Shown in pieces: positions 1 to 15,144 of a DNA stretch of 64,000 nt (the stretch's first letter is position 1; the number at the start of each line of letters is the position of its first letter). Position numbers and translations under genes: made by a program. The notes beneath the pieces were generated by a model that saw nothing but the letters and a program-made list of their open reading frames with translations, was not told the origin of the DNA and made no database searches. Source of the stretch: a virus (taxonomy: Duplodnaviria; Caudoviricetes); the IMG/VR virus record IMGVR_UViG_3300021431_000075, positions 288,001-352,000 of that record. One strand, written 5' to 3'.

Positions 1-1654
1 CGACAAGCCTGCCCTGCGTGTCAATGTAGTTCGTCCTGATGACGGCCTGGTTGCCGTCGAAGCATAATGTCCTGACCTGCGCGAACCCGTCCGCGAACGG
101 CATCGCGTCCTCGAAGAATGTTTCCGAAAGCAGGCGTCCGGTCCTGTCTATGAAGTTCCAGCCGTTGAGCTGCCGTAATCTGTCGTCCGACGCCGTGATG
201 CAAACAGCGGCAAACCCCCCGCTGAACGGCTTCGCGTCCGTGATGGCGCACCCGATGTCCAGGGCTGTCATGCCGAAGTCCCTCGCGTAGTCGAGCATGA
301 CTTCGGTTCCGCTCCTGTCTGTCAGGCGGTCTATCAGCTTTCCGTCAGCGCCTATGAAAGTCTTCGCGCCGGAGCCTCCGGTCTCGACAATCCCGAATCC
401 GTCCCTGAATTCCGAGGCGTTCACGAACCACCGGTCCGAAAGGAGCCTTCCGTCCGTTCCGACATAGTTGAACAGTCCGTTGTTCTTGACGATTCCGAAT
501 CCGCCAGAGAACCCGTAGCACCTCTGGAAGCCGGGCTTCAGCAGGAAGTTCCCGTTTCCGTCGATGTAGTTCCACATGCCTGATGCGCGCCGCACGGCTC
601 CGAATCCCCCGCGGAACGCCTCCGCTCGGTCAAGCCTCTCCGGGGACAGCACGGTTCCGCCCTTGTCCACGTAGTTGTATCCGAAGGTCTCATGTCGGCT
701 GTTCTCGTACCGTATGACAGCGAAGCCTTCGCTGAACCGCTCCGGCACATACCCGTCCGGCTCAAGGACGGTGTTCCCGTTCTTGTCTATGAACACGTAT
801 TTCCCTGCTGTATAGTCGAAAACCCTTGCGACCCCGTCGCTGAAGTCGTCCGCCTTGTAGAACCCATTGCCGAACATGACGTTGCCGCTCTCGTCTATGA
901 AGTTGTACCGGCTCTCCTGCGGCGCGCCGGAAATGCAGACCTTCGCGCATCCGTTGCTGAAGCTTCCGCACTCGCTGAACTCGAATCCTGTTATGAGACC
1001 GTGTCCGCGCCTTGCGTATGCATAGTCGGAACCGTCTATCCTGGTCACGAGCGTGCCATTGTCCGACACGAGCCTTGCGAAAGAGCGGACTATCTCTTTC
1101 CGTGCGGCATCCCTGCCCGTGCCCGGGAACACGCATGATATGAAATCGTCCCAGCCTTCCATGGAAAGTATCCGGATCTTGCCGGTGCCGTCGTCCGTGT
1201 ACGAGAATATGACAGCCGGGGAGCTTTCGCCGTTGACAACGGACACGGACACCTTGTACCGGATTGATGACGAATCCTCGGGCATGGTCCTCGGGAACGC
1301 CATGCGGACGAGCAGGTCGCAGAACCTCCCGACGCTCCCGTCCACGGAAATTCCGTCTATGAGTATCACCTTCGCGTCAGCCGGCGAGTCGTCGAACCTG
1401 TATCCCTTCCTGACATCCGGCTTTCCGCCGCCGTTCCTCATGTACCATCCGGCGGCGCTCCTGACTTGACCGAGCACCGCTTCCGGAGTGGTTATCCGCG
1501 CAATCCACTGCCGCAGGAACTCGACAGAGAGCGGAACCACCCTCGCGCCATTCCCGGCAGAATCGTCCGCAGGGAGATCCGAGTCAGTGACCTCGTCCGC
1601 CTCGACCCTGTCAAGCAGGCTCTCCGACATGTATCTGAACCGTTTCGTTTCCAT
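1..1654 (-). CDS. WG-repeat protein with ESLLD acidic leader (3' end runs off window)
   Basis: Not in the ORF track. Read by hand at both ends: METKRFRYMSESLLDRVEADEVTD from ATG 1654, GRFCDLLVRMAFP internally, and NYIDTQGRLV in the same frame at the window edge; starts 18 nt after the upstream paralog stop. Confidence 0.85.
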   Translation of the reverse strand, partial: METKRFRYMSESLLDRVEADEVTDSDLPADDSAGNGARVVPLSVEFLRQWIARITTPEAVLGQVRSAAGWYMRNGGGKPDVRKGYRFDDSPADAKVILIDGISVDGSVGRFCDLLVRMAFPRTMPEDSSSIRYKVSVSVVNGESSPAVIFSYTDDGTGKIRILSMEGWDDFISCVFPGTGRDAARKEIVRSFARLVSDNGTLVTRIDGSDYAYARRGHGLITGFEFSECGSFSNGCAKVCISGAPQESRYNFIDESGNVMFGNGFYKADDFSDGVARVFDYTAGKYVFIDKNGNTVLEPDGYVPERFSEGFAVIRYENSRHETFGYNYVDKGGTVLSPERLDRAEAFRGGFGAVRRASGMWNYIDGNGNFLLKPGFQRCYGFSGGFGIVKNNGLFNYVGTDGRLLSDRWFVNASEFRDGFGIVETGGSGAKTFIGADGKLIDRLTDRSGTEVMLDYARDFGMTALDIGCAITDAKPFSGGFAAVCITASDDRLRQLNGWNFIDRTGRLLSETFFEDAMPFADGFAQVRTLCFDGNQAVIRTNYIDTQGRLV

Positions 1655-1671
1655 CCGCTTGTTTCCATTGT

Positions 1672-3405
1672 TTATATGAACGCGACGAACTCCCCGTCCG
1701 GGTCCATCGCGGAGCCGTATCCGTATTCCGAAAGCAGGCAGCCGTCCTCGGACATGCAGTACCTGGCCTTGACGCAGAACGAGTCGTCCTCCGGAATCAG
1801 AAGCTCTCCCCTCGTGTTTATGAAGTTGTAGAACTTGACCGGCGTGTTCTCCACCGCCATCTCCACCCTCGCGATTCCGTTCACGAACGGCTCGCAGTAC
1901 ATGAAGAACCGGTCGGACAGCATCTTTCCGTCCGGCTTCATGTAGTTCCACCTCTTTATGTATCCGAGGGACACGCACACCCTTGCCAGCCCGCCGCTGA
2001 ACGGATACGCGTCAGTTATCGTGACCCTCTTCCCGTTCACCGTCCTGTCGAAAATCTTCCTGCCGGACGTGTCGATGAAGTTGTACGACGGGTTCGGGAA
2101 CGTGTAGTCCGTGTCGGACACGACAGCCAGCCCCTCGCTGAACCTGCGTGCGACGGAGAACCTGTCCTTGCCCAGCATCTTTCCGTTCCTGTCGACGTAG
2201 TGGTACATCATGTCCCGGCGGACGACCCCGTATCCGCACGAGAACGGACCGCCGCACCAGTCGCATCCGTCGTCGAGCAGCATCGTCCCGTCCGTCCGCA
2301 TGTAGTTGAAGCGGTTCTCCGGCTTGTCCATGGACACCACAGCCATGCCCTCCGAGAAGTCGCCGCAGGAGTCGAACCAGCTGTCGGACAGGAGCCTTCC
2401 GTCCCTGCCGATGTAGTTGAACTTGTTCACGTTCTTTCCGTACCTCACGACGGCGAACCCCTCGTGGAATCCGCCTTCCGGCAGGTAGTTCGTATTCGAC
2501 ACGGTCTTTCCGTTCCGGTCTATCACGCGCATCGACGCCTTGCCGTTTGCCGCGGTCCCGACGACTGCAAGCCCGTCCCCGAAGTCAGACGCGTAGTCCT
2601 GCCACTCATCAAGCAGAACCTTTCCGTCCGCGCCGACATAGTTGTAGCCGTCCATGTACTTGTCTCCGTCCCAGTCCAGCCTCTTCACGAGGGCGAAGCC
2701 GTCGCAGAACTTCCTGCATGCGGTGAAGTCGAACCCCGTCAGGAGTCCGGAGCCGCTCAGGTAGGCCCACTTGTCCCCGTCCACGTTCGCTATGCACGTG
2801 CAGTCCTCCGTCTGGAACCTTGCGTACGCGCCGGCAATCGCGCCCTGCGCGCCCTTCCGGGTCAGTCCCAGCTTCGGAAACAGCTGCGACGCGAACTCGA
2901 ACCATCCGTGAACGGAGAACTTCTTGCATTCGCAGTCCTTCCTGTTGTCGAAGGTGTTGGTTATGAGTATCCTGCCGGAATCGGACGGAATGTACGCGTC
3001 CGGGTCTCCGAACGACACGACGACCTTGTAGTCCTTCATCGTGGTCTGGAAGCCGTCCCTCTGCATGACCATGCGCACGAGCAGGTCGCAGAACCTCTCG
3101 AACGGCGTGTCGCTGTACAGGCTGAACCTGACAAGTATGCGCTTCTTCGTCTTCTCGTCGAAGTCGTCGAACTTGCTGACATCCACGTCGCATGTGAACG
3201 GACTGCTCCTGAGGACCCCTGTGATCTGGAACAGCAATATGTTCGGCTGCACGTACTCGGTTATCCATCCGTAGTTGACAGTGACCGTGAACTCCATTGG
3301 GATGCTCGGTCTTGACTCTTCTTCTATGACATCTTCCGAGTCCTCGACCTCGTCGGCATCCACCGAATCGAGCAGGCTCTCTCTTATCTGATATGTTCGC
3401 GCCAT
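1672..3405 (-). CDS. WG-repeat protein with ESLLD acidic leader
   Basis: IRESLLDSVDADEVED leader; repeats FxEGxAVV...(Y/F)NY(I/V)DxxG; C-terminus DPDGEFVAFI. Confidence 0.9.
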   Translation of the reverse strand: MARTYQIRESLLDSVDADEVEDSEDVIEEESRPSIPMEFTVTVNYGWITEYVQPNILLFQITGVLRSSPFTCDVDVSKFDDFDEKTKKRILVRFSLYSDTPFERFCDLLVRMVMQRDGFQTTMKDYKVVVSFGDPDAYIPSDSGRILITNTFDNRKDCECKKFSVHGWFEFASQLFPKLGLTRKGAQGAIAGAYARFQTEDCTCIANVDGDKWAYLSGSGLLTGFDFTACRKFCDGFALVKRLDWDGDKYMDGYNYVGADGKVLLDEWQDYASDFGDGLAVVGTAANGKASMRVIDRNGKTVSNTNYLPEGGFHEGFAVVRYGKNVNKFNYIGRDGRLLSDSWFDSCGDFSEGMAVVSMDKPENRFNYMRTDGTMLLDDGCDWCGGPFSCGYGVVRRDMMYHYVDRNGKMLGKDRFSVARRFSEGLAVVSDTDYTFPNPSYNFIDTSGRKIFDRTVNGKRVTITDAYPFSGGLARVCVSLGYIKRWNYMKPDGKMLSDRFFMYCEPFVNGIARVEMAVENTPVKFYNFINTRGELLIPEDDSFCVKARYCMSEDGCLLSEYGYGSAMDPDGEFVAFI

Positions 3406-3433
3406 AAGAATCTGTGATTTATAGACTATAAAC

Positions 3434-3440
3434 TATTTAT
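3434..3440 (-). promoter_or_regulatory. ATAAATA late-type promoter box
   Basis: About 29 nt upstream of ATG 3405; same box precedes most paralogs. Confidence 0.6.
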
Positions 3441-3730
3441 TGCCGGTTGATTGTTCGGTGATGTTCCGCATATGGATAAGCAGAAAACCGCATATCTCTT
3501 GCGAAACGTGCGTTAAACTGAAATCAGGTTCTATCTTTTAGACAGGACCCGTGAATGGTTCCGATAAGAAAGCCGTCGTCAACAGACAGCCTTTCGCAAT
3601 ATGACAATGCGCGCGCAATGTCCTGCAGTTTCCACTAAGCATGCGTCTCGAATCATCCGCTTGCGGAATCAACTTAAGCATCTTACGGTCTTGTATGAAT
3701 GTTGTATGATTATTATATGAAATTAGAAAA

Positions 3731-3918
3731 CCTTAAATCTTGAAAACTTTAATACCTTGAATCTTTAATACCTTGAATACTTTAATACTTTAATACTTTA
3801 ATACTTTAATGCCTTGAATACCTTTAATCTGCTACACGCCACTTGAAAACTTTAATACCTTGAATACTTTAATACTTTAATACTTTAATACCTTGAAATC
3901 TTGAATCCTTAAAATACC
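3731..3918. repeat. AT-rich tandem array of CTTTAATA / CCTTGAATA units in two blocks
   Basis: Directly visible 8-9 nt units, e.g. CTTTAATACTTTAATACTTTAATA; blocks ~3740-3828 and ~3842-3916. Confidence 0.9.
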
Positions 3919-4055
3919 CTATGACATGCCGTCGCCTCCTGCACGGCTCCGTTGCCGCTCGAATCAGGCATGCCTTCATAATTATATATCATCGGTTTTT
4001 TCAAAAAGTTTAAATTTCCCTGAAATTTTTACTCAATGACGCATATTTGTATATG

Positions 4056-4088
4056 AAAAAGCCGGATTCCTCCGCAGAACCCGGCTTC
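4056..4088 (-). terminator. Intrinsic terminator
   Basis: AAGCCGG...CCGGCTT stem followed by T-run on - strand, downstream of 4111..5778. Confidence 0.7.
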
Positions 4089-4110
4089 TCTGTTCACTTT
4101 CGCAGCCGTG

Positions 4111-5778
4111 TCACACGCATGACACCTGCGAGCCGTCCGTGCCGAACCTTATGCAGCGCGCCCCGTCCGTGGTCTGGAAGAACCCGTCCCTGAGCACCGG
4201 GACCGAGAACTCCGCGCCGAACATCTCGTCGATGACGGTCTTTCCGTCATACGCGACGATGGACCAGCGCCCGCTCGGCCTGACGACGCAGATCATCCCG
4301 GCATCCTCGTAGTCCGCGACAATCTCCCCGTCGCAGACCGCGGTCCCCGTCGCCGCGCTCATCACGGTCATGTTCCTCCTGACGAGGTTCGCGGAACTGC
4401 ACACCTGCACGAACCTCCCGTTGAATACGCTGGCGTTCCTGAAGCCGTGCGCGGACAGGAACTTTCCGGAGGTGTCCGCGACGAAGAGCCTGTCCTTGCT
4501 GGTCCTCAGCAGCAGTATCCCGTGGCTCGGCAGGCTGACTCTCGCGAACCAGTCCCTGAAGAGAAGCCTCCCGTCCGGACCGACCGCGTTCTCCTTCCCG
4601 TCGTGCGCGCCCCAGACCTTCATGTCGGACACGACTCCGGCGCCGTCCGAGAACCCGGTTGCCATCCGGTACCACCTGCCGAGCAGCAGGGTCCCTTGCG
4701 GCACCCTGACGTAGTTCGCCGCCGTGACCCGCGTGCCGCCGTCGCGCTCCTCCCTGTACACGCGCGCCAGGCCGCTGCTCACGGGACCCAGGTACCAGCC
4801 CCAGTCCCGCAGCGCGGGCCTTCCCTCCGTGTCGACGAAGTTGCACTCCCTCTCCTTCCTCTTGACCCACGCGTACCCCTCGCTGAAGTATCCGGCAGCA
4901 GTCACGCCGGTCAGGTTCTTCTTAAGCAGGAGCGACCCGTCCCTGTTCACGAAGTTCCATTCACGGTTGTTCGACACCTCGCAAGGAATCGGCCAGTCGC
5001 CGGAGAGGCACACCTGCGACCCGTTATGGAACCACTGTCCGCACACCTCCGTGCCGTCGGGACGGATCAGGTTCCAGTCCAGACTGTCGTCCTTCACCAT
5101 CGCGACCCCGTCGCGGAACCTTGACACGGACTTGTACAGCCTGATCTCGGTCACGGTTCCGGAAGCGCTCACGGCGAACGCCCTCCGGCGCCCATTGCCG
5201 AGGGACCACCAGACGCAGAAGTCGTCGCCGAGCCTGTCCGCAAGCGCATTGTACTGCCGGGAGTTCCTCACGACAGCCTTCGAGACCGCGCTGAACACGT
5301 CCGCGGTGCCGGCGCCGCCACCGGAGAACCTTCCGAACAGGCTCCCGACCGCGGACGGAGTGGACTGTATCCATATTCCGCTCTGCACCGTCTCGACAGT
5401 GAACCCGAACCTCGGCGTCAGCCCGACCCTTGTCTTGCGCCCTCCCGCCGCGCAGAACGCAGCCGCGATGAAGCCGCACATCCTTTCCGCGCAGATGTCC
5501 CCGGCGTTCACGTGGACGCGCACGTGGCGCTCCCTCGTCTCCTTGTCTATGAGGAACCTGTCGGTCAGCGTGCGTATGACGCGCCCGATGTACCTCGACG
5601 CGTAGTTGTCCACCGAGTGTATCCACACCTCGGTGTCGAAGTCGTCCTCCGACTCCGGCGCGGAAAGCGCGTCGTCATCCTCGACCTCGTCGGTCCCCAT
5701 GCCGTCGAGCAGGCTCTCGCAAAGAGCCGTGCAGTGCGGTCCGTATGCCGTGCCGTATCTGTATCGTGATGTTTCCAT
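4111..5778 (-). CDS. WG-repeat protein with ESLLD acidic leader (divergent)
   Basis: LCESLLDGMGTDEVED; repeats WNFVNRDG, FSEGYAWV, CNFVDTEG; C-terminus GTDGSQVSCV; ATAAATA at 5798-5804. Confidence 0.85.
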   Translation of the reverse strand: METSRYRYGTAYGPHCTALCESLLDGMGTDEVEDDDALSAPESEDDFDTEVWIHSVDNYASRYIGRVIRTLTDRFLIDKETRERHVRVHVNAGDICAERMCGFIAAAFCAAGGRKTRVGLTPRFGFTVETVQSGIWIQSTPSAVGSLFGRFSGGGAGTADVFSAVSKAVVRNSRQYNALADRLGDDFCVWWSLGNGRRRAFAVSASGTVTEIRLYKSVSRFRDGVAMVKDDSLDWNLIRPDGTEVCGQWFHNGSQVCLSGDWPIPCEVSNNREWNFVNRDGSLLLKKNLTGVTAAGYFSEGYAWVKRKERECNFVDTEGRPALRDWGWYLGPVSSGLARVYREERDGGTRVTAANYVRVPQGTLLLGRWYRMATGFSDGAGVVSDMKVWGAHDGKENAVGPDGRLLFRDWFARVSLPSHGILLLRTSKDRLFVADTSGKFLSAHGFRNASVFNGRFVQVCSSANLVRRNMTVMSAATGTAVCDGEIVADYEDAGMICVVRPSGRWSIVAYDGKTVIDEMFGAEFSVPVLRDGFFQTTDGARCIRFGTDGSQVSCV

Positions 5779-5869
5779 AGCCTTATAATATATAAGATAT
5801 TTATGCGGAAAATGCGGAGACCGGACCGTTGCAAGTCCAGTCTCCGCACTATCGGGGACGGTGCCGAAA

Positions 5870-6346
5870 TCAGCACTCCTCCTCTATCCCGTCTATCGGC
5901 TCTATTCGCCTCCAGTAGAGGACCGTGAACATCGGGCTGTTGCCGTCGTTGAACACGGTGTCCCACTCGTCTCCGCCGACATACTCGCCGTTCACGTACT
6001 CTATCACCCCGCGGTACACGTATCCCGCAAGCCAGCAGTTCTCTCCCGGTCTCGGGCGCCTGCCGCTCCTTCTCACGCTCACCCACTCTTCCGGACGGCT
6101 TCCCGGCTTTCCGAAGTCGCTGTCCGAGAGTCCGTACACCGGGTCGTCGTCCCGCGCCGTCCATCCGTCTCCGCCTTCCCTGACAAGGTCCTCGACCTCC
6201 CCTATCACGTAGTTGAGCACGTTGATTCCCTCTCCGCTTCCGCACTCCCTGAGGATGCGCTCGAGCCTTCCGAGTCCGTCGTCAAGGCTGTCCGGCCTGG
6301 TGAACTCGCCCCTGTTGGCGAAAGGCCTGTTGCTTCTGTTGTCCAT
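5870..6346 (-). CDS. hypothetical protein
   Basis: 158 aa, co-oriented and tightly spaced after 6359..8251; phage-like composition. Confidence 0.65.
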   Translation of the reverse strand: MDNRSNRPFANRGEFTRPDSLDDGLGRLERILRECGSGEGINVLNYVIGEVEDLVREGGDGWTARDDDPVYGLSDSDFGKPGSRPEEWVSVRRSGRRPRPGENCWLAGYVYRGVIEYVNGEYVGGDEWDTVFNDGNSPMFTVLYWRRIEPIDGIEEEC

Positions 6347-6358
6347 ATTGCTGAATGA

Positions 6359-8251
6359 CTAATCTTTTTCTTCCTCCGTATCTCCGGCGCTGCTGTCCAC
6401 CACCGGGATTCCCATCTTCTCCACCGCGCTGGCGTACTCCGCGAGCACCCTGCTGACGTCCTTCGCGTCCGCGAACCTGAACCTCAGCCCGAAAGCGCTC
6501 GCCTTGATGCCGCGGCAGCACCTGCTTATCTCCGGTCCGGGGACCCCGCTGAACTCGGACGCCTCGCCGAGGGACCTGAACTGCCGCTCCGTCCCGTTCG
6601 GCAGCGTGACGATGACCGGCTTCCTTCCGCGCGAGCCGAGCGCCCTGCCCTTGCCTCCGCGCGACAGCATTTCCGCGTTCCTCTCCATCGACTCCATGCT
6701 CTCCGCCCTCTTCCGCGCGCGCATCTCCGGGTCCTTCATCGCGCGGCGCACCTGCCTCATCCCCGGAACGTCCATCAGCGGGTTCCCGTGGCTTCCGCTC
6801 CGCATCGCGCGCTCGACAGCGGCGTCAGGGTTGTCAATCCACTCCCTGACGGTCCCCGAGTCGAGCTGCACAGGCCTTTTCCTGTACGGTCCGCGCCCAG
6901 GCTCCGACTCCTTGTACAGATTCGTGATGTCCGTGTCAACGCCTGCAAGCGCGCTCTGATGGGTCCTCTTGACAGTCCTTATCGCCTCTCCGACCGTGCC
7001 GTACGCGTCATATGTCGCAAGCGGAACCTCCATCGCGGACTTCGGAAGCACTGTCCCCGCTTCCGCGGAGCCGTTTTCCGCATGCAATGAAGCGTCAAAA
7101 ATGGATGCATCGATAACGGATGAGTCGATGACAGAGGTGTCAATAGCGGATGAGTCGGCCGCCTCCGGCGCGTCCTCGAACTCGAACTTCCTCCAGTGCC
7201 GGTTCCAGAACTCCCTGCGCCTCTCGTCCATCTCCGCGTACTCCCCGACGGAGCCTTTCTCGCGGTCCGCCCTGATGTTCGCGAGCTCCTCGGCGAGCTG
7301 GCGCTTCTCTTCCCTGAGGAAGTTCCTGCGCTCAAGCACCGCCTCCTTGGATATGCGCTTCTCGAGGGTCGCTATGCGCTTCTCAAGGGTCTGCATCGCG
7401 GGTCCCTCCGACAGCACCACGCTCTTGATTTCGGAGTGGCGGACCTTCTCCGCGAACTTCCTCAGGAAGCTGTCGAACATCTCCGGCTTGTCTATGGTCA
7501 GCGCGCATATCGACGCGAGCCTGCTGAGCATCGCCCTCTCGAGGTCGGCGGGCCTGGATATGACGTTCATGTCCTTCGGCACGAACAGCATCACCTCGTT
7601 GTCCGCGAGCTCCCGGATGTTCTCCCTCGTGAGCCTTGTCTTGACCGTGGAGTATATCTCGTCTATCAGCTCGTCCCTTATCCGCCTCTCCATCTCCGCG
7701 CGCATAGACTCCATCTCCGCCTCCCTGGCATGCATGCGGACGGCATCATATACCTCGGGCGAAATGTCGCACCGCCACTGCGCGCCGGTCGAGGGGTCCG
7801 TCGCGACCACGGAGAACGGCTCCCCGTCCGCGGAAGGCTCCCTGACCTCGGTCCTGAGACCGGACGGAACCGCAGTGCCGGTATTCCGCGCCTCCGCGCT
7901 GAGCGGACGGAACGAGCCTGCGGACGGCTCCAGTCCCGCGACCGGAAAGGTCCCTGCGGTCCGTTCGTCCCATGCGAGGTTGTCTGCGGAGCAGTCGGAC
8001 AGGTCCCCGTTCAGGTGAACGACCCCGGAGCACCTGTCCGGGTTCGGCATGAACGCCTCGGCTACGAGCCTGTCGAGCGCGAAGTCCGTTCCTCGGAACC
8101 TCGCGTACGTCCTTCCGTCCGGTCCGGTCATCGTCCGCGGAGCCATCAGCAGCTTTCCGCTCCTGTGCGCCCTCACCGTGTACCACGGCTCCAGATATGA
8201 TATGTCGCGGAAGTCGTCCGCGGCTGTGTTTCTTCTTGTTTCCATCAGCAT
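6359..8251 (-). CDS. HNH_3-like / coiled-coil / NUMOD1 protein (degenerate homing-endonuclease scaffold)
   Basis: N-terminal RLVAEAFMPNP...VVHLNGD...DNLAW (HNH-like); C-terminal KPVIV...FRSLGEASEFSG...ISRCCRG...AFGLRFRF (NUMOD1-like). Confidence 0.75.
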   Translation of the reverse strand: MLMETRRNTAADDFRDISYLEPWYTVRAHRSGKLLMAPRTMTGPDGRTYARFRGTDFALDRLVAEAFMPNPDRCSGVVHLNGDLSDCSADNLAWDERTAGTFPVAGLEPSAGSFRPLSAEARNTGTAVPSGLRTEVREPSADGEPFSVVATDPSTGAQWRCDISPEVYDAVRMHAREAEMESMRAEMERRIRDELIDEIYSTVKTRLTRENIRELADNEVMLFVPKDMNVISRPADLERAMLSRLASICALTIDKPEMFDSFLRKFAEKVRHSEIKSVVLSEGPAMQTLEKRIATLEKRISKEAVLERRNFLREEKRQLAEELANIRADREKGSVGEYAEMDERRREFWNRHWRKFEFEDAPEAADSSAIDTSVIDSSVIDASIFDASLHAENGSAEAGTVLPKSAMEVPLATYDAYGTVGEAIRTVKRTHQSALAGVDTDITNLYKESEPGRGPYRKRPVQLDSGTVREWIDNPDAAVERAMRSGSHGNPLMDVPGMRQVRRAMKDPEMRARKRAESMESMERNAEMLSRGGKGRALGSRGRKPVIVTLPNGTERQFRSLGEASEFSGVPGPEISRCCRGIKASAFGLRFRFADAKDVSRVLAEYASAVEKMGIPVVDSSAGDTEEEKD

Positions 8252-8281
8252 CAGGCCTGCGCTTTTTTTTGCGCGGCTCCT

Positions 8282-8318
8282 TATTTATCTTGGCGGTTTC
8301 CGCACGCCCTGATAAATA
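8282..8318. promoter_or_regulatory. Back-to-back divergent GATAAATA late-type boxes
   Basis: TATTTAT 8282-8288 (-, for 8251) and ATAAATA 8312-8318 (+, for 8343) in an otherwise GC-rich arm. Confidence 0.6.
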
Positions 8319-8342
8319 TTGAAAGTTTCATTGCAGCAGGAT

Positions 8343-8549
8343 ATGAACGGAAAGAAAAGGATGAGTCCGCGCAGGGTTGACGAGAGCGTCAGCAGGCTCG
8401 TGGCGGACAGGCTCGACGACATCATGCGTGTCGCCGGCGCCGAGAGGCTCGGTCACGCGATTGTCGCGTACGCGAACTACGACAACGGGGAGGCCGCGGA
8501 CAGGGACCTCCTCAGGCAGATAGCGGACATGGTCCGCAGGGCAGGATAA
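8343..8549 (+). CDS. small hypothetical protein
   Basis: ATG 8343 just after ATAAATA; MNGKKRMSPRRVDESVSRLV. Confidence 0.6.
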   Translation: MNGKKRMSPRRVDESVSRLVADRLDDIMRVAGAERLGHAIVAYANYDNGEAADRDLLRQIADMVRRAG

Positions 8550-8563
8550 AACAGGACACACTC

Positions 8564-9295
8564 ATGCAGGATATGGCAAGGAAAAGAAGAAATAGCGAGG
8601 ACATGTTCGCAGGACAGAGCCTCAGGAGCATAGCCGGTCTTCCGGATGCGGGAACCGTGGTCAAGGTGTGCGGACCCGGAGGGGTTCCGCTCGACGTGCT
8701 CGGCAACCCGATTCCGCAGCAGGACGAGAACAGCTATGATATAGAGACCGGCGACGACTACGACTTCAGCGTCAGGGGACTCGAGGACAAGTCCCTCGAC
8801 TACAGGACCGGAGCGAACCCGGAAGCGGACCCGGACAGCCCGTTCGTGAGAAGGCGCGGCGGAGCGGCGTCGGACATGGAGTTCGCGTACAGCGACGACG
8901 ACCTGCTTCCGGAGACGGACAGCGGCTACATCGAGAGCGGAGACGGGTACGAAGGCTCCGGTTATCCGGACGACCACGGTGACTACGGGGAATATGACGA
9001 CTACGGAGAATACGGCGAATATGACGAGTACGGAAGCGACACGTACGCCGGACTCGACGACGAGCAGATAGACGCGATATACGAGGCGCTCTCGGACCCT
9101 TCCGGGAGCAGGAACCCGGCAAGGGTGATTTCCGCTTTCGCGGACAGGAACGGGTACGCCGCTCTCGGTGACCTGTTCTACGACGGAGTGCTCGACGGGG
9201 AGATAGCGGTGGGACCCGAGCTGAGGAAGCACCTCAACTTCATCTACGCGCTAACCAAGACTAACGTGAAGCCGGCAAGCGACTACCTGATGTAG
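8564..9295 (+). CDS. acidic low-complexity protein with GEY/DEY repeats
   Basis: 243 aa, D/E/Y-rich, GDYGEYDDYGEYGEYDEYG tract. Confidence 0.75.
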   Translation: MQDMARKRRNSEDMFAGQSLRSIAGLPDAGTVVKVCGPGGVPLDVLGNPIPQQDENSYDIETGDDYDFSVRGLEDKSLDYRTGANPEADPDSPFVRRRGGAASDMEFAYSDDDLLPETDSGYIESGDGYEGSGYPDDHGDYGEYDDYGEYGEYDEYGSDTYAGLDDEQIDAIYEALSDPSGSRNPARVISAFADRNGYAALGDLFYDGVLDGEIAVGPELRKHLNFIYALTKTNVKPASDYLM

Positions 9296-9321
9296 CCGCA
9301 GGAAGATAGCCGGATGAAAGC

Positions 9322-9389
9322 AGCCGGGGGAGCTGTCCTGTCACTGGAAGGTGACCGCGGACGCTCTCCCGGCTTCCGTGTCTCCACGG
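9322..9389. other. Long GC-rich hairpin(s) between convergent units
   Basis: AGCCGGG..GTCAC-TGGAAG-GTGAC..CCCGGCT, then CCGTG-TCTC-CACGG. Confidence 0.5.
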
Positions 9390-9394
9390 GTCCA

Positions 9395-9646
9395 AAAGGT
9401 AAAAAGATTCATGCATCTCCGAAGAATTAAACATAGTCAAAAAGTAGTCATACTACCATTGATATATTCACTACCTTGTTTAGCAAGGCTTCTTCGAAAC
9501 GATAATAATACTTCCTTCGCCTTTTCACGTTTAAGTTTCTTAGGCTCAAAAGCACTATTATCAAGTTGTTTTAAGAGTGATTCTTGTAACACGGTTACAA
9601 GCACTCTGTTCATTATGTTCTTTGCAGCGTTAAAGTCTGCTGAAAC
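9395..9646 (-). pseudogene. 3' remnant of a tnpB gene (RuvC-III motif plus C-tail and right-end region)
   Basis: AT-rich island in GC-rich DNA; translates ADFNAAKNIMNR...KKLKREKAKEVLLSFRRSL; (N)ADxNAAxNI is the TnpB RuvC-III signature; boundaries approximate. Confidence 0.7.
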
Positions 9647-9651
9647 TCCCG

Positions 9652-10212
9652 CTAAACGTGCGGAAGTATGAGGAACTCGATGGCCGCCCACAGCGCGACT
9701 GCAACCGCGAGTATGACGCGACCGTTCGAGAACAGCCTCTCGTACAGGTCCGGATGGATCCATGAAGGCTCCTTGTCAGAATCATGCCGCGAGACGCCCG
9801 CACGGATTGCCGCGGGCTGCCCGACGTCTCCGCTGTCGTGCGGAACGAAGGCTCCGTCCTCGTCGTCGGAACTGTCGTCTGCTCCGTCTGCGGATTCGGA
9901 AGCCTGCCCGGATTCTCCGGATGCCTCTGTGATGATTATGCCCGGAACGTCTGTTACGGTTCCGCAGCCGGAATCGCTTTCCATATCAACGCGCGTACTG
10001 TCCGGAAGTCCGGGGTTGTCTTGATTGTCTTTATCAGCGCATGTGACGCAAGTCTCCTGTTCTGCAACCGGTTTCCGTGACATTGCAGCAGCATCGGTTT
10101 CCGTGACGCCTGTCTCCTGTTCCGCGCTGTCCGGGATTCCGCGGTCCGAAGCCGGAACCATCGCCGCAGCCGGTATGAGCACGCGCCTATGTCTTCTTTG
10201 TTCGTTTGCCAT
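9652..10212 (-). CDS. acidic protein with C-terminal transmembrane anchor
   Basis: D/E/S-rich body; VILAVAVALWAAIEFLIL at C-terminus; upstream host-type promoter at 10378-10409. Confidence 0.65.
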   Translation of the reverse strand: MANEQRRHRRVLIPAAAMVPASDRGIPDSAEQETGVTETDAAAMSRKPVAEQETCVTCADKDNQDNPGLPDSTRVDMESDSGCGTVTDVPGIIITEASGESGQASESADGADDSSDDEDGAFVPHDSGDVGQPAAIRAGVSRHDSDKEPSWIHPDLYERLFSNGRVILAVAVALWAAIEFLILPHV

Positions 10213-10377
10213 CAGTCATGTCATGTTTCATTTCTGCGCACAATCTCTGCCGTCTGTTCGGGGATGCGTCCGCGCCGCCTTTGCAAAAGCAATGAATATG
10301 GCGTACAAGAACAATCAGTCCGAAACTGTCCGGCGGCGCGGGTCCCCTGATGAAACAGACACAGATTCATGCTGGTG

Positions 10378-10409
10378 CAAAGGTATGCATTTTCTGTGAG
10401 CCGTGCAAG
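10378..10409 (-). promoter_or_regulatory. Bacteroidota primary-sigma promoter (-33/-7)
   Basis: CTTG-N20-TACCTTTG on - strand. Confidence 0.6.
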
Positions 10410-12516
10410 AATAATGACGGAAAAACTCGCGATTTGTATATTTTTAACATTTCAGGCGGATACAGGAGTTATACGGTTTTGTGTTACGCATTTCTGTATA
10501 ATGTGTTTCCGGATGCGGTTCTCCAATGATTTGCATAATTATTCAGCCAAATGAATATGCGACTTTTTGTATATACGGTATAATTATGCATATATTCATG
10601 CATCTTGCATATACGGTTTCATTGCATAATTATGCATTCATATCTACGGAGATGAAGTCTGCCGGATGAAGAATCCTAACAAAAGCTAAAGCATTTTCAC
10701 TATTGTTAGGACTTTCCATGCGCGCCAGCCGGTTTATGCGCAAGCCGCCTGTTCAAGACAAATGCAGTATTTTGCCATGGGAAAGCAATCAGGGAATGCT
10801 CTGTACGAGTCCGTTGTGGATGATGTGGCAAATGCTGCCGGAAAGAAACCGTAAGAAAGCACGGATGAGTCAAGGAGCGTGTGCAGTGTCTTTCTGCAGC
10901 CGCTCCGCTTCTTGTATATGCGATATAGTGCTGTGCTGCCTTTTCATCACGAAAAGTTCGTGACGAAAAATTCGCGATGACGCTGTCTTGCGAGTCCGGA
11001 CCCGTGACACTCGTGAATGCTGAGCAAGAATCCATTCTTTATATGTAATGCGCCTTTTATGGAAGAATGACCGTCCGTGTACCGGACAGTGTGTGTGAGT
11101 GACCGTGCATTTCCGGACTTGTATATGCAGTATGCGGATTCAGAACGCAAGGTTTATGCCTTGTTTCACGGAAAGCAAGGTGTATTCCTTGTTTAATGAC
11201 GGCGCCGGAACGCTGTGTCGGAAACCGGCGGACCGAATGCAATGATATTTCACGATGAACCGGTTTTTGAACGAAGATATGAATGAACAGATGAACAAGC
11301 GGTTGAACAAGCGGAAACCGTATGGAATCGCGAAACGGCTACGTTCTGTGCAACGGACGCGCGGTCGGCTGCATCCGCGTCTTGGCGGCATAACGCCGGC
11401 TTGAGACCGCTGCTATGATAGGGAATGCGGATGAAACCGCGGGTGCGGAGCATGATGATGCGCGAATGCGGATAGATGGACGCTGCCGGGACCGGGAATA
11501 TCGGAAAGATTGGCGGAAGAAGCCGGCAATGCGGAGAATGTTAGGGATAAATCCGTGAGTAAGGAAGAATATGATATAGATTTATGGAGATTTGCGGATG
11601 AATTTATCGGGCGGATGCCGGTTTGTAGGGATTCCGGGGGAATGGTCCGGACGACTTTCCTGATTTTGACAGGCGGAATGCACGGAACCGGGGAAGAACG
11701 GATGATTTGCGGACAGGATAATGGAAAGAACTTGAATGACGGCTGGAAATATTAGGCGTATTGATGCGATTTCGGCATTGAGTGTGTCGAATGCGAGCGA
11801 CTGTAGGCAAGAGACCTTGACTTGCTCGGGTTCTGCAAGCCGAATGAAGCCGCGGATGCACGTCTTGAGACCGAAAATGATTCGGTTTCGGCTGCGGAAT
11901 GAACAGAATGTTCGCCGAAAGGTTGTAGGCTTGAGACCTTTTTAAGATTGTGCGGAAGCCGAGCTTGAGACCGAGGGAAGATTTGACTTAGGCAAATACG
12001 GAAATATTAAGCCGATATTGTATTGATTTTTGGAGAGCCTGAAGTTCAAGAAGTTAAGTTTTTCCTCAGATGAGATAAATAAAGGTTCAGAAGGTGTCTA
12101 TTTGGCTCTATATGGCATTTTCATACACAAAGTGTATGAACGGTAGTCTAAAATTCAAACGGCTCTTATATGCGATTTTTTAATCTTGTATATAATGACT
12201 GGTTTCTTTTGACTACATATGTGTGTTTCTTAAATCTTAACATCTTTCTTTGATTCTTCGGATTATTATCTTCATATGTTGGACTTACAGATGGTGGTTG
12301 TTCAAACAAGAACAAGTCTGAATTCATATCATCAATAAAGATAATAATAAACTATGGACATAAATAAGACTTCTGGAACCATTCACTATACCATTTAGTA
12401 TATAGAGTTATTTTTAATCCGTCGTTGTTCTTATGTATGTTAAGGTTTCTTCCTTTCGACTCGGTTCTTTGTTTATAGTTTGATTATGCTGTTTTAATTC
12501 AAAAAATACCTGCATG

Positions 12517-12630
12517 GGTTTCTTGCTCACAATTTGCAATGGATTCAACCAATCAGTTAATGTTGGTCTCTTGCACACAACTTGCACAGGTCTCTTGCTC
12601 ACAACTCACGCAGGTTTCTTGCTTGCGCAA
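12517..12630 (+). repeat. Iteron-like repeats GGTYTCTTGC(WCACAA), 24-bp phased
   Basis: Copies start at 12517, 12565, 12589, 12613; inverted copy GCAAGAGACC at 11807-11816. Confidence 0.8.
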
Positions 12631-13689
12631 TAAGCATAATATTGATTTTAACTATATCCGGTTTATGAAAGAATGGTTCCATTGCATTTGCTTCAGTTCT
12701 CTTTGCATCAGTTCCTTTTCGCTTGGTTCTTTGCAATGATGTTCTTTTTCAACTTGGATTCTTACGCTTGGTTCTATTCTATTTGTATCTCACATTCTTT
12801 GTATCTAATATCCAGTTTCAATTGCGCTTGGTTTTGCACTTGCATATAAAGTACTGGTTCCTTGCCTGCAAGCAGTTCAACTAACCAATGACCGGTTTCA
12901 TGCCTGCGCATTCACTGCACCCTTTCAACTTCCAATTGCGAAGAAAAGAACCAAAAGCCGGTTGTGCTCTGAACATAATGAACATAACGCTTTGCTGTTT
13001 GACGACTGTTTGGTTCCTTTCCCTTTTCATTATAGTTCGCTTTGCGAGTTAGAGTCAGTTCTGCTCTCTTGTATTTTACTCATTTTCTTACAGCAATGAC
13101 TTTTGTCCAGTTATTGACCCGCTTAATATATCATCCCCCATCACATAATTTACTAAGCGGGTCGGAAATTGGACACTTTTCACACGGTTTCTTTTTGCTT
13201 GCATTGATTCGACTAACCAATGTCACTTTTAACAAAAAAGAAAGCATAACATAGTTTTTCGCAACCAGAACTAACAACACACCCTGCTGTACGATTGGTT
13301 CTCGAAGCGAAACAGTCTTGCGGACGGCAATATATGCGCTAATGCGATTCGACAGACAGGTGAATTCGTTTATAGCGCTTGCTTGGTTTGCACGGTTCCT
13401 TGCCATTGTGTCATGCAAGCAGTTTCATTATCAGATTATTGGTTCTCGGCATCCTTCTCACCTACCGATGCAATCGCTTGCAGAGACGGTCGTGTCGGTT
13501 GGTCTCGGTTCCGTTCTCTTGCGATTCGCAAGCGCGGTTCCGTGTTTCGTGTACCCTTCTTGTTGTTGCTTCATTTCCGGCAGGTGACTGCATTCAGCGG
13601 ATTCTTCCGCAGAACCGCTATGCGGGTCATCGTATCGTGATGTTTCAGGACTGCTGACTTAGAAACGAATGCACATCATCGGTTCCTGC

Positions 13690-13953
13690 TTGCAGGCATT
13701 GGAACGGATTGAGACGGGTGCGGTCGTTCGCGTCCATGGCAGACGGCTTCCCTATGCAGCATGATTAGTTCTCGATGCGGATTGGAGTGAATGGACTGTT
13801 TGTCTTGGACTTCTGTTCGTTATGTGTTCTGGATTCCTTTTTTTATTTTATGCAATAAATAAACAAAATGCATTTTTTGATTAAATGAGAAAACAAAATA
13901 AGAGAGCTCTTTACGAGAGCATCATGAGAGATGTTGCTAAGGTTGTCAAGAGA
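13690..13953 (+). repeat. Direct repeat copy 1 (upstream region, late box, MRKQNK leader)
   Basis: Near-identical to 14874-15144. Confidence 0.9.
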
Positions 13954-14472
13954 CGACTGAGCGAGGGTTTATATGACTTTGATTCAACAAATTCATACGA
14001 TGATGTTGATGACATTATTAATAGAAGAGATGAAGAAAGACGCAGAAATGAATTTGCTGAAAAATATGAAATTGTTGACAAAATGCCAATAGAAGGTTTT
14101 AGGAGAGTTGTGAATAAAAATACAGGCAAAGAAAATTATATAGACTCAAAAGGTCGTTTTATTTCAAGAAATTGGTATGATAGGTGTTATCCGTTCAATA
14201 AAGAAGGTTATGCAAAAGTTAGAACAACAAAAGTTAGAACAAATAATTTTGGAGAACGATACACATATAATCTTATGAATAAAGACGGACGTATTTTGTT
14301 TGGGTACTGGTGTGAAGAGTTGCATGATTTAAAGGACAGCGATTATGTATTAGTTAAGATAAACGGTTCTTATAATTTTATAGATCTGCATGAAAGATTT
14401 TTGTTTAATTCATGGTTTAAATCCAAAGCCGATGCTTTAGAAGCTTATTATAAACATTATGAAAAATTGTAA
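13885..14472 (+). CDS. short WG-repeat protein with MRKQNK...LYESI leader
   Basis: MRKQNKRALYESIMRDVAKVVKRRLSE then ENYIDSKG, YNLMNKDG, YNFID repeats; ATAAATA 13855-13861. Confidence 0.85.
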   Translation: MRKQNKRALYESIMRDVAKVVKRRLSEGLYDFDSTNSYDDVDDIINRRDEERRRNEFAEKYEIVDKMPIEGFRRVVNKNTGKENYIDSKGRFISRNWYDRCYPFNKEGYAKVRTTKVRTNNFGERYTYNLMNKDGRILFGYWCEELHDLKDSDYVLVKINGSYNFIDLHERFLFNSWFKSKADALEAYYKHYEKL

Positions 14473-14641: not shown

Positions 14642-14896
14642 ATGTCTGCATATAAATTCTTGAATGAAAGCTTGCTGGATGATGTTGAAACTGATGATGT
14701 TGATGATGTTGATATAGAAGCAGAAGATAGTTTTGCGGGAGAAGAGCCTTTTGTTTGGGTTTTTAAATACGAACACACTGTTCCGTCATGCACGAGGGAT
14801 TATCTCAATAAGATACTGGCAAGCAGCGAGTGTGTTGGAAAGTTTGACGAACTTATGTTTAATGATGACTATATTGCAGGCATTGGAACGGATTGA
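14642..14896 (+). pseudogene. Truncated chimeric ESLLD-family gene
   Basis: MSAYKFLNESLLDDVETDD...DDYIAGIGT nearly identical to the start of 18214..19887, then stops on entering the 14874 repeat. Confidence 0.85.
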
Positions 14897-15144
14897 GACG
14901 GGTGCGGTCGTTCGCGTCCGGAGCCGATGGCTTCCCTAATGCAGTCCCATGCAGCACGATTGGTTCATGATGCGGATTGGAGTGAATGGACTGTTTGTCT
15001 TGGACTTCTGTTCGTTATGTGTTCTGGATTCTTTTTTTTTGTGCAATAAATAAACAAAATGCATTTTTTGATTAAATGAGAAAACAAAACAAGAGAGCTC
15101 TTTACGAGAGCATCATGAGAGATGTTGCTAAGGTTGTCAAGAGA
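14874..15144 (+). repeat. Direct repeat copy 2
   Basis: Near-identical to 13690-13953. Confidence 0.9.

What the first reader, a model, noticed from the sequence alone, without database searches (positions are those of the whole stretch)
11200..13850. Mirror-oriented motif field around an AT-rich core: candidate bidirectional origin
Left of ~12.0 kb the + strand is purine-rich with repeated GAAACC/GAACC/GAGACC (CTTGAGACC near 11400, 11864, 11930, 11964). Right of ~12.2 kb it is T-rich with many GGTTC/GGTTT/GGTCTC, the reverse complement. Most genes point away from this region. Known: T4 primase uses 5'-GTT-3' template sites. The polarity seen (GTT on + to the right, on - to the left) is what lagging-strand templates of diverging forks would show. 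Origin function is inference; a packaging or genome-end region is an alternative.
Basis: partly seen in the sequence, partly recalled or inferred. Interest (0 to 1): 0.7.

Follow-up and report, generated by a model that had tools for sequence, protein, structure and literature searches.

The report
Mirror-motif origin candidate in a megaphage
The largest gene-free stretch of a 673-kb rumen/gut megaphage holds an AT-rich centre flanked by oppositely oriented arrays of one 10-base box, at the point where the genome's strand bias flips; it is most likely the phage's replication origin, but that is inferred, not shown.

Summary
The gap 10,213-13,884 is the largest ORF-free stretch of this 673,114-bp Lak-related megaphage. 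GGTYYC occurs 16 times on + (1 on -) right of ~12.1 kb and 10 times on - (1 on +) left of it, against about 1.3 expected per side. An unbiased scan of 31,744 degenerate hexamers picks this motif (0 of 300 shuffles reach it), and a genome-wide scan ranks this locus first. The 10-mer GGTYYCWWGC occurs 33 times in the genome, 11 of them here, all correctly oriented.

The origin reading is partly supported. A regression of skew on gene strand plus replichore puts the switch at 295-300 kb. The primase rationale is weak, because GTT is not polar on the left. The mirror is only partial: the left also carries 10.5-bp-phased TGCGGA boxes with no partner, and the outer parts are a dead gene and a duplicated promoter cassette. 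No initiator, promoter or DnaA box was found, and Lak phages lack the motif. Rival readings are another unique protein-binding site, a non-coding RNA, or debris.

The parts
10213..13884 (.). Whole non-coding gap between divergent genes 9652..10212 (-) and 13885..14472 (+); it is the largest ORF-free gap of the 673-kb genome
   Evidence: ORF lists. No period-3 signal, z -1.2 to -0.3 against 8-62 in genes. No Pfam match in any fragment. No Rfam family or tRNA. No open frame under recoded stops that looks like protein.
10777..10854 (+). Dead start of a leader-tagged WG-family gene (MGKQSGNALYESVVDDVA..., stop after 25 codons), with a GC-enriched copy of the family 5'UTR
   Evidence: blastx matches to residues 1-37 of five family members; sequence read.
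11147..11193 (+). Strong hairpin followed by T-rich sequence; terminator-like, probably the end of the dead gene
   Evidence: Fold -24.8 kcal/mol, z -5.6; terminator-like site.
11268..11314 (+). 12-bp tandem repeat (TGAACAAGCGGT type), 48 bp longer in the related contig L007
   Evidence: TRF; alignment with L007.
11300..11900 (+). Helically phased purine-rich tract: 10.5-bp periodicity, TGCGGA boxes on the + strand only
   Evidence: Spectral power 5.2 against a shuffle maximum of 3.98. Six of eight TGCGGA boxes are in phase, with spacings of 63, 63 and 115 bp. Nine copies against 1.0 expected.
11563..13109 (.). Low-divergence core: 3 substitutions in 1547 bp against contig L007
   Evidence: 3/1547 inside against 124/3310 outside, binomial p 5e-17.
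10845..11972 (-). Left array: GGTYYC boxes on the - strand. The inner, best-matching copies (cGGTCTC-WW-GC) are at 11399-11408, 11807-11816, 11864-11872, 11929-11938 and 11963-11972
12000..12440 (.). AT-rich centre (GC 0.29-0.33) where box orientation switches. It holds a 7-bp-stem hairpin at 12123-12139 and two ATAAATA heptamers that lack the late-promoter flanks
12201..13686 (+). Right array: GGTTYCTTGC boxes on the + strand, 16 GGTYYC copies, densest at 12444-13012
12517..12636 (+). Iteron-like 24-bp tandem units (GGTYTCTTGCWCACAAYT...), four boxes spaced 48, 24 and 24 bp apart
13104..13175 (.). Long imperfect inverted repeat (about 30-bp stem) at the right edge of the low-divergence core
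   Evidence: I1. Fold -30.6 kcal/mol, z -5.15. The L007 change at 13110 restores a pair.
13690..13884 (+). Duplicated promoter and 5'UTR cassette of the leader-tagged gene family, with a consensus late box at 13855; not part of the unique element
   Evidence: 87% identical to window 14874-15075; flank score 9.2.

Best explanation
The central roughly 1.5-2 kb (about 11.4-13.1 kb) is a single-copy, DNA-level cis-element, and most likely the primary bidirectional replication origin of the megaphage.

Shown:
- An AT-rich 450-bp centre is flanked by two arrays of one 10-bp box (GGTYYC-WW-GC). Their 5'-to-3' direction points away from the centre on both sides.
- The element lies in the interval where the replication-type strand bias of the whole genome changes sign.

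Inferred:
- An unidentified phage protein binds the boxes with opposite polarity on the two sides.
- This melts the AT-rich centre and orients loading of the DnaB-family (gp41-like) helicase and gp61-like primase in both directions.
- The helically phased TGCGGA tract on the left may be a bent or wrapped auxiliary platform.

The outermost parts are not part of the element. Window 10.2-11.2 kb is a decayed gene plus its terminator, and 13.69-13.88 kb is a duplicated promoter cassette.
For: - The motif field is real, locus-specific and mirror-oriented, and it ranks first of 1,339 centres genome-wide.
- It is the largest non-coding gap of the genome.
- The global cumulative GC-skew minimum is at window 8309, with a plateau to 14 kb.
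- Adding a replichore term to gene strand raises R2 from 0.52 to 0.77 (alpha 0.11, beta 0.09). The best origin is 295-300 kb and the terminus about 590 kb. The fit worsens sharply to the right of 300 kb.
- The same class of middle (replication-class) genes has skew of about +0.2 on the + strand at 350-440 kb and about 0 on the - strand at 495-556 kb, as the replichore term predicts.
- Contig L007, from another metagenome, is colinear across the region, and the core is 20-fold less diverged than its flanks.
- No recognisable promoter of the host, middle or late class lies inside 10,400-13,850. The arrays show no RNA structure (z 0.09). This favours a DNA-level role.
- The phage has a T4-type replisome: polB, a DnaB-family helicase and a gp61-like primase.
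- In T4 the active origins lie at points of transcriptional divergence and compositional shift, and oriE carries iterons (PMC3016281).
- An AT-rich unwinding element flanked by initiator boxes is the standard archaeal origin plan (PMC5333045).
Against: - There is no functional datum: no coverage, read-end or transcript data.
- No initiator gene lies nearby. The neighbours are acidic low-complexity proteins, and the 53-aa ORF in the centre has no homologue.
- There are no DnaA boxes.
- The skew fit cannot separate this gap from the other large gaps at 268-287 kb. Its optimum, 296 kb, is about 4 kb left of the centre.
- The local skew inside the gap is inverted: G-rich on the left and C/T-rich on the right.
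- The field is far larger than known phage origins.
- The motif is absent from Lak-A1 and Lak-C1 and occurs only 3 times, scattered, in Lak-B1. Lak-C1 has only a 515-bp AT-rich gap at its own skew minimum, with no such arrays.
- Divergence of 0.2% over 1.5 kb is tighter than box-level constraint would give. It may instead reflect recent recombination or unusually variable flanks.
- Many box copies arose by local duplication.
Confidence: 0.42

Rival explanations
1. It is a unique protein-binding DNA platform for a process other than initiation. Candidates are a packaging-initiation (pac) site or physical genome end with protective polar sequences, a centromere-like or DNA-organising site, or an opposed pair of polar fork barriers (a terminus trap).
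For: - The element is single-copy, locus-specific and mirror-oriented, with a helically phased flank. From my own knowledge, these features also occur at pac sites (P1: hexamer sets on both sides of the cut; SPP1: phased boxes and bent DNA), at plasmid centromeres and at Tus/Ter or R6K fork traps.
- Mirror symmetry alone does not tell which strand is the active one.
Against: - TerL lies about 260 kb away at 559.5-562 kb.
- The contig's terminal repeat is a 127-bp assembly overlap, so no physical end is indicated.
- The sign of the skew (a minimum, with G>C on the strand leading away) is that of an origin, not a terminus.
- I did not search for partition genes.
Confidence: 0.2
2. The arrays act as RNA. 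The right half (about 12.1-13.2 kb) would be a roughly 1.1-kb pyrimidine-rich non-coding transcript carrying about 13 GGUUYCUUGC motifs and ending at the 13104-13175 hairpin and its U-rich tail. It could serve, for example, as a sponge for an RNA-binding protein. A leftward partner transcript would carry the same motif in sense.
For: - Divergent transcripts would both carry the motif in sense orientation, which also explains the mirror layout.
- ATAAATA heptamers lie at 12075 and 12360.
- A strong hairpin with a T-rich tail lies at 13104-13200, and an L007 change there restores a pair.
- This phage has other orphan non-coding RNAs nearby (earlier notes, unchecked).
- Near-total sequence identity over 1.5 kb is more typical of an RNA than of spaced protein boxes.
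Against: - The two heptamers lack the flanking consensus of 125 gene-proximal late promoters: scores -8.7 and -11.3 against 7.2 +/- 4.9.
- No host-type or middle promoter lies on either strand within 10,400-13,850.
- The arrays are unstructured: z 0.09 on the right and -1.3 on the left.
- There is no Rfam match.
- No leftward promoter was found.
Confidence: 0.15
3. It has no dedicated function. It would be debris at a recombination-prone junction of two compositional domains: decayed members of the flanking gene arrays plus local tandem and inverted duplications that happened to multiply one short word.
For: - A dead family gene start lies at 10777, and a duplicated promoter cassette at 13690-13884.
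- There is a 12-bp repeat of variable copy number, and L007 carries an insertion of a small element.
- Box copies lie in duplicated 13-48-bp units, and the left and right units are related by a 16-nt inverted match.
- GC content steps from about 0.6 to about 0.35 across the gap.
- The purine-rich left half has the composition of a + strand gene.
Against: - There is no residual coding signal in the core.
- The core is the least diverged part of the 4.9 kb compared, not the most diverged.
- Orientation is perfectly segregated for 26 of 28 hexamer copies and 11 of 11 decamer copies.
- It is the strongest mirror field in 673 kb, and it coincides with the skew switch.
Confidence: 0.15
4. The origin lies in one of the other large non-coding gaps 15-30 kb to the left (genome 268.5-270.7, 279.5-281.0 or 284.8-286.7 kb), and this field serves some other purpose.
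For: - The bootstrap interval for the switch is 263-297 kb.
- The fit at 264-268 kb is only slightly worse than at 300 kb: 2dLL 7.3-7.8 against 5.3.
- Earlier first-reader notes describe repeats and a palindrome platform in those gaps (unchecked).
Against: - The best fit is at 296 kb, and the sharp edge of the profile is at 300 kb.
- Minus-strand genes at window 1-8251 still show left-arm-type skew of -0.11 to -0.25.
- None of those gaps has a comparable mirror field.
Confidence: 0.08

Closest known systems
Archaeal oriC: AT-rich unwinding element flanked by origin recognition boxes (ORB and mini-ORB) bound by Orc1/Cdc6
   Same: An AT-rich centre flanked on both sides by several copies of one short box (PMC5333045). 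From my own knowledge, the boxes are inverted across the unwinding element, so that polar initiator binding orients helicase loading.
   Different: No Orc1/Cdc6 or other initiator gene lies next to the element. The box sequence is unrelated. The field is 5-10 times longer. The replisome here is T4-like and the helicase is of the DnaB family. Binding was not tested.
Phage T4 origins: oriF/oriG (promoter plus downstream unwinding element, R-loop primed) and oriE (12-nt iterons)
   Same: Both have a T4-type replisome. T4 origins lie where transcription switches strand and compositional bias shifts, and oriE has a cluster of short direct repeats (PMC3016281). Here too there is an AT-rich segment, a strand switch and short repeats, including a 12-bp tandem repeat.
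   Different: No promoter of a recognised class abuts the AT-rich centre. T4 has several small origins (about 100 bp) with no shared motif and no mirror arrays. This genome shows a single two-replichore skew pattern, which T4 does not.
RSF1010/R1162 oriV with ssiA and ssiB (own knowledge)
   Same: Priming signals sit on opposite strands in mirror orientation beside an AT-rich segment, and the element's own primase uses them. The boxes here contain GTY on the strand that would be the lagging-strand template of each outgoing fork.
   Different: The ssi signals are single 40-nt hairpins, not arrays of 10-bp boxes. RSF1010 also has iterons and a RepC initiator. Primase specificity here is unknown, and GTT is not polar on the left.
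Skew-predicted origins of huge phages (Al-Shayeb et al. 2020, PMC7162821; Borges et al. 2021 preprint, 10.1101/2021.08.26.457843)
   Same: The origin is placed at the cumulative GC-skew minimum of a circularised huge-phage genome.
   Different: Those papers give no sequence anatomy of any origin, and for Lak phages no clear replichores could be defined. Here the skew is split into gene-strand and replichore parts, and a specific cis-element is described.

Membership tests
Bidirectional replication origin (generic, cis-acting) | Lies at the sign change of replication-associated strand bias | tested here: met
   The cumulative skew minimum is at window 8309, with a plateau to 14 kb. The replichore term switches at 295-300 kb. 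Resolution is about +/-4 kb, and the bootstrap interval reaches 263 kb.
Bidirectional replication origin (generic, cis-acting) | AT-rich unwinding element next to clustered repeats for an initiator | tested here: met
   GC is 0.29-0.33 at 12000-12440, between arrays of GGTYYCWWGC. Actual melting and binding were not tested.
Bidirectional replication origin (generic, cis-acting) | Replication actually starts here (copy-number peak, bubble arcs, autonomous replication) | not testable with these tools
Bidirectional replication origin (generic, cis-acting) | A cognate initiator protein is identified | tested here: not met
   The neighbours are acidic low-complexity proteins with no Pfam or PHROG match. 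The ORF in the centre has no homologue. A genome-wide search for initiators was not done.
DnaA-dependent oriC-type origin | Cluster of DnaA boxes (TTATCCACA) | tested here: not met
   Only one one-mismatch match (10815) lies in the gap, and there is no cluster.
T4 oriF/oriG-type R-loop origin | A promoter directly upstream of the AT-rich unwinding element | tested here: not met
   There is no middle or host-type promoter. The ATAAATA at 12075 lacks the late-promoter flanks. An unknown promoter class cannot be excluded.
T4 oriE / plasmid iteron-type origin | Evenly spaced direct repeats in one orientation | tested here: inconclusive
   Four boxes are spaced 48, 24 and 24 bp apart (12517-12636), and there is a 12-bp tandem repeat at 11268-11314. 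Overall the boxes are irregularly spaced and occur in two opposed sets.
pac / cos packaging site | Lies in or beside the terminase genes, with defined DNA ends | tested here: not met
   TerL is at 559.5-562 kb. The contig ends are a 127-bp assembly overlap. DNA ends could not be tested.
Structured non-coding RNA | Own promoter, significant fold, covariation | tested here: not met
   There is no promoter. Array folds have z 0.09 and -1.3. There is no Rfam hit. Covariation cannot be tested with one near-identical homologue.

The most novel reading that the evidence does not exclude
The arrays are not initiator sites but dense landing or start sites for the phage's own gp41/gp61-type primosome. 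They sit on the strand that is the lagging-strand template of each outgoing fork, on both sides of an easily melted centre. On this reading a giant T4-like phage sets up both leading strands from one fixed, initiator-independent origin, as a functional analogue of ssiA/ssiB of RSF1010. This would be the first sequence-defined origin of a megaphage.
Probability: 0.1. Interest if true: 0.75.

Novelty: new variant of a known kind. Interest (0 to 1): 0.48.

Why it matters
Origins of huge phages have so far been placed only by GC skew, and for the Lak group no replichores could be defined at all. Here the skew can be split into a gene-strand part and a replichore part. The switch coincides with a concrete, testable cis-element: opposed arrays of a 10-bp box around an AT-rich centre. 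That layout is known from archaeal and eukaryotic-virus origins but, to my knowledge, not from tailed phages. If confirmed, it would give a handle for three things: finding the initiator or primosome-loading step of a 673-kb T4-like replisome, measuring replication activity of these uncultured phages from metagenome coverage, and building replicons for them.

Tried and rejected
- Coding under the standard code or with TAG, TGA or TAA read through. The only long frame (417 codons with TGA=W) translates to non-protein-like sequence. There is no period-3 signal and no Pfam hit.
- tRNA or Rfam families: none.
- Sigma-70-like promoters and terminators: at chance level.
- DnaA boxes: none clustered.
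- Late promoter at 12075: rejected on its flanking consensus.
- Helical phasing of the GGTYYC boxes: not significant.
- Genome-wide polarity of GGTYYC: only a weak bias, as expected from composition.
- Homologous loci:
  - No match in GenBank phages.
  - Exact patterns found nothing in IMG/VR.
  - The flanking proteins have no relatives in IMG/VR.
  - A degenerate array pattern gave only chance hits.
  - The genome collection gave only chance hits.
  - No look-alike in the scan's own index.
  - Only one related contig, L007, was found, in metagenomes.
- The motif in Lak-A1, Lak-B1 and Lak-C1: essentially absent. Lak-C1 was fetched whole: its skew is multi-modal, and its main strand switch is a 515-bp AT-rich gap without such arrays.
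- The small ORF at 12166-12327 (-): no homologue.
- Primase Pfam models (Zn_ribbon_DnaG, Toprim_2, Toprim_4, Prim-Pol) all missed. The primase was found through PHROGs and the PDB instead.
Full report
CONTEXT. The window is bases 288,001-352,000 of a single 673,114-bp IMG/VR virus record that CheckV rates as complete. Its 'direct terminal repeat' is an exact 127-bp overlap, which is the signature of a circular assembly rather than a physical end. A fragment of its DNA polymerase B is 53-55% identical to that of the Prevotella Lak megaphages, the best hits in GenBank. The genome encodes a T4-type replisome: a split polB, a DnaB-family helicase, and a primase whose zinc-binding region matches T4 gp61 in the solved primosome structures 8dvf and 8gao at E 2.5e-10. 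Earlier notes of this scan had already called it a Lak-related rumen megaphage. I re-checked only the points cited here.

THE REGION IS NON-CODING AND EXCEPTIONAL IN SIZE.
- Between the - strand gene 9652..10212 and the + strand gene 13885..14472 there is no credible gene.
- With crude ORF calling it is the largest ORF-free gap of the genome.
- There is no period-3 signal: z is -1.2, -0.8 and -0.3 in the left, centre and right parts, against 8 to 62 in neighbouring genes.
- No fragment matches Pfam even at E = 10.
- Reading TAG, TGA or TAA through gives nothing protein-like.
- There are no tRNAs or Rfam families.

The outer parts have mundane explanations. At 10777 there is a dead start of the leader-tagged WG-repeat family that fills both flanks (MGKQSGNALYESVVDDVA..., stop after 25 codons), with a GC-enriched copy of the family 5'UTR. 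It is followed by a strong terminator-like hairpin at 11147-11193. At the other end, 13690-13884 is an 87% copy of the promoter and 5'UTR cassette of the next gene. The element of interest is therefore about 11.2-13.7 kb.

THE OBSERVATION. The left half is purine-rich and G-rich, the right half has T at 0.364, and the centre at 12000-12500 has GC 0.285-0.325.

The shared word is GGTYYC, extended to GGTTYCTTGC on the right and cGGTCTCAAGC on the left, which gives GGTYYC-WW-GC overall.
- Right of 12.15 kb it occurs 16 times on + and once on -. Left of 12.05 kb it occurs 10 times on - and once on +. Dinucleotide shuffles give 1.2 and 1.3.
- Because I chose this motif after looking at the sequence, I ran an unbiased test. 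Over all 31,744 hexamers with up to two R/Y positions, each normalised by a first-order Markov expectation, I took the best motif enriched on + at the right and on - at the left. GGTYYC/GGTYTC wins with a weaker-side -log10 p of 5.9. In 300 shuffles the mean was 1.87 and the maximum 2.96.
- The same statistic slid along the whole genome (1,339 centres) ranks this locus first, at 7.48. The runner-up, at 5.60, is a near-palindromic AT word.
- The decamer GGTYYCWWGC occurs 33 times in 673 kb. Eleven copies lie in this 3.7 kb: four on -, all at or left of 11963, and seven on +, all at or right of 12517. Of the other 22 copies, 21 lie inside genes.
- The orientation switch falls between 11972 and 12201, at the left edge of the AT-rich centre.

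LIMITS OF THE MIRROR PICTURE.
- Copies are not independent. Four right-hand boxes form a 24-bp tandem array (12517-12636). Others share 13-31-nt units. Two left-hand units are 23-nt copies of each other. Left and right units are linked by a 16-nt, 88% inverted match.
- The commonest left-hand word is TGCGGA: 9 copies, all on +, against 1.0 expected. It has no partner on the right. It belongs to a tract at 11300-11900 with a 10.5-bp periodicity (power 5.2 against a shuffle maximum of 3.98), with boxes spaced 63, 63 and 115 bp apart. This suggests one-face binding or bending.
- GGTYYC boxes themselves are not phased.
On the left it is 14:17, so it is not polar there.

SKEW. The genome-wide cumulative GC skew has its minimum at genome 296,309 (window 8309), which is the start of the last long - strand gene. 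It then stays flat to window 14,000.

Gene orientation flips at the same place, so I regressed per-gene skew on gene strand and on a replichore indicator, with the origin and terminus free.
- Strand alone gives R2 0.52. Adding the replichore term gives 0.77, with alpha 0.11 and beta 0.09.
- The best origin is 295-300 kb and the best terminus about 590 kb. The fit falls steeply to the right of 300 kb but only slowly to the left.
- At 1-kb resolution the optimum is 296 kb, and 300 kb costs 2dLL 5.3. That difference depends on two small genes and one spurious ORF.
- The bootstrap interval is 263-297 kb.
- The replichore term is not just a gene-class effect. Genes on the + strand at 350-440 kb (earlier notes place replication and DNA-modification genes there) have skew of about +0.2, while genes on the - strand at 495-556 kb (polB, helicase and primase lie there) have about 0. 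That is what alpha +/- beta predicts.

So a replication-type polarity switch exists, and it lies within a few kb of this field. Skew alone cannot exclude the other large gaps at 268.5-270.7, 279.5-281.0 and 284.8-286.7 kb. Inside the gap the local skew is inverted, G-rich on the left and C/T-rich on the right. That reflects the motif content and perhaps the dead + strand gene, not replication bias.

NOT AN ASSEMBLY ARTEFACT, AND PARTLY CONSERVED. One metagenome contig (L007, Ga0310697_10028186, 5,145 bp) is colinear with window 8611-13467 at 95.5-96.7% identity, across the GC step and the centre.
- Differences are very unevenly spread: 3 substitutions in 11563-13109 (0.19%) against 124 in the remaining 3,310 bp (3.75%), which includes two protein genes. 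The binomial p is 5e-17.
- This core holds the four inner left boxes, the AT-rich centre and the dense right array.
- I read this as supportive but ambiguous. A twenty-fold lower divergence over 1.5 kb is more than box-level constraint would produce, so recent recombination or unusually fast-evolving flanks are equally possible. With one comparator this cannot be settled.
- L007 also has 48 extra bases in the 12-bp repeat at 11291, and a 233-bp insertion at about 10265.

TRANSCRIPTION.
- The host-type Bacteroidota -7 box TAnnTTTG occurs 579 times in the genome, so about 3.4 are expected in 4 kb. Only one occurs here, at 10385 on the - strand, upstream of gene 9652..10212.
- The phage middle promoter (TAAAC-N17-GTATAC type) is absent.
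- The late box ATAAATA is a real promoter element: 129 of 262 copies lie within 100 nt upstream of a same-strand gene. The two copies in the AT-rich centre (12075, 12360) lack the flanking consensus, scoring -8.7 and -11.3 against 7.2 +/- 4.9 for 125 gene-proximal sites. The copy at 13855 scores 9.2.
- The arrays do not fold better than shuffles: z 0.09 and -1.3.
- Strong hairpins lie at 11147-11193 and 13104-13175, roughly equidistant (+/-985 bp) from 12155. I attach no weight to this symmetry.

Together these points favour a DNA-level element, but they do not exclude an RNA made from an unknown promoter.

COMPARISON WITH RELATIVES. No homologue of the gap exists in GenBank phages or IMG/VR, and the flanking proteins have no relatives there. 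The decamer is absent from Lak-A1 and Lak-C1 and occurs three times, scattered, in Lak-B1. I fetched Lak-C1 whole. Its skew is multi-modal, in line with the published remark that Lak replichores are unclear. Its global minimum (266,083) coincides with its main strand switch (266,072/266,588), but that gap is only 515 bp, is extremely AT-rich, and holds just two roughly 25-bp direct repeats. The large mirror field is therefore a feature of this lineage, not of the Lak group.

INTERPRETATION. A single-copy, mirror-oriented array of a 10-bp box around an AT-rich centre, sited at the genome's replication-type polarity switch in a phage with a complete replisome, is best explained as an origin of bidirectional replication. 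The plan resembles archaeal origins, which have an unwinding element flanked by ORBs (PMC5333045). It also fits the placement rule seen in T4, where active origins lie at points of transcriptional divergence and compositional shift, and where oriE carries iterons of unproven role (PMC3016281). It does not meet the oriF/oriG definition, since no promoter abuts the AT-rich segment. It is not DnaA-type. It lacks an adjacent initiator gene.

I put the origin reading at about 0.42. The rivals are: another unique DNA-protein site (pac or end, centromere-like, fork trap) at 0.20; an RNA-level function at 0.15; debris at 0.15; and an origin in a neighbouring gap at 0.08.

The boxes contain GTY on the strand that would be the lagging-strand template of each outgoing fork, and the phage has a gp61-type primase. 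They could therefore be primosome start sites, analogous to ssiA/ssiB of RSF1010. I give that about 0.1.

VERDICT. It is a new variant of a known kind of element and of moderate interest. The literature held here places huge-phage origins by skew alone, so a sequence-level candidate that can be tested by coverage mapping and binding assays is useful.

Noticed in passing
L007:1665-1897 (insertion point about window 10265-10270): The related contig carries a 233-bp insertion that the window lacks. It is 93% identical to genome 84,345-84,576 and about 69% identical to window 9416-9640, the 'orphan tnpB 3' end' noted earlier. This small element therefore seems to be mobile within the phage population.
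   Followed up: partly
window 11268-11314: The 12-bp tandem repeat (TGAACAAGCGGT type) varies in copy number between strains; L007 has 48 extra bases.
   Followed up: partly
window 1-14000 (genome 210-302 kb): There is a sharp GC step. Genes to the left of the gap have GC 0.50-0.65, and those to the right 0.31-0.45, although both sides encode the same WG-repeat family. The roughly 90-kb high-GC domain ends inside the gap at about 12.0 kb. The cause is unknown.
   Followed up: no
window 11147-11193 and 13104-13175: Two strong hairpins (z -5.6 and -5.2) lie about 985 bp on either side of 12155. The L007 substitution at 13110 restores a base pair in the right one.
   Followed up: partly
window 11300-11900: A 10.5-bp helical periodicity is carried mainly by T and by TGCGGA boxes spaced at multiples of 10.5 bp (63, 63, 115). 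It suggests bent or wrapped DNA.
   Followed up: partly
genome about 585-615 kb: The fitted terminus (about 590 kb) falls inside the tail-fibre inversion region described in earlier notes. Inversions there may blur the skew maximum, which appears as a plateau at 460-560 kb in the raw curve.
   Followed up: no
Lak-C1 (MK250029.1) 266,073-266,587: In Lak-C1 the main strand switch and the global cumulative-skew minimum coincide at a 515-bp, extremely AT-rich gap. It holds two direct repeats of about 25 bp (AAAATGTAGACTTTTT.C.CAAAAG), making it a candidate origin for that phage.
   Followed up: partly
window 12166-12327 (-): A 53-codon ORF for a basic peptide lies inside the AT-rich centre. It has no homologue and no recognisable promoter, so it is probably not a gene.
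   Followed up: yes
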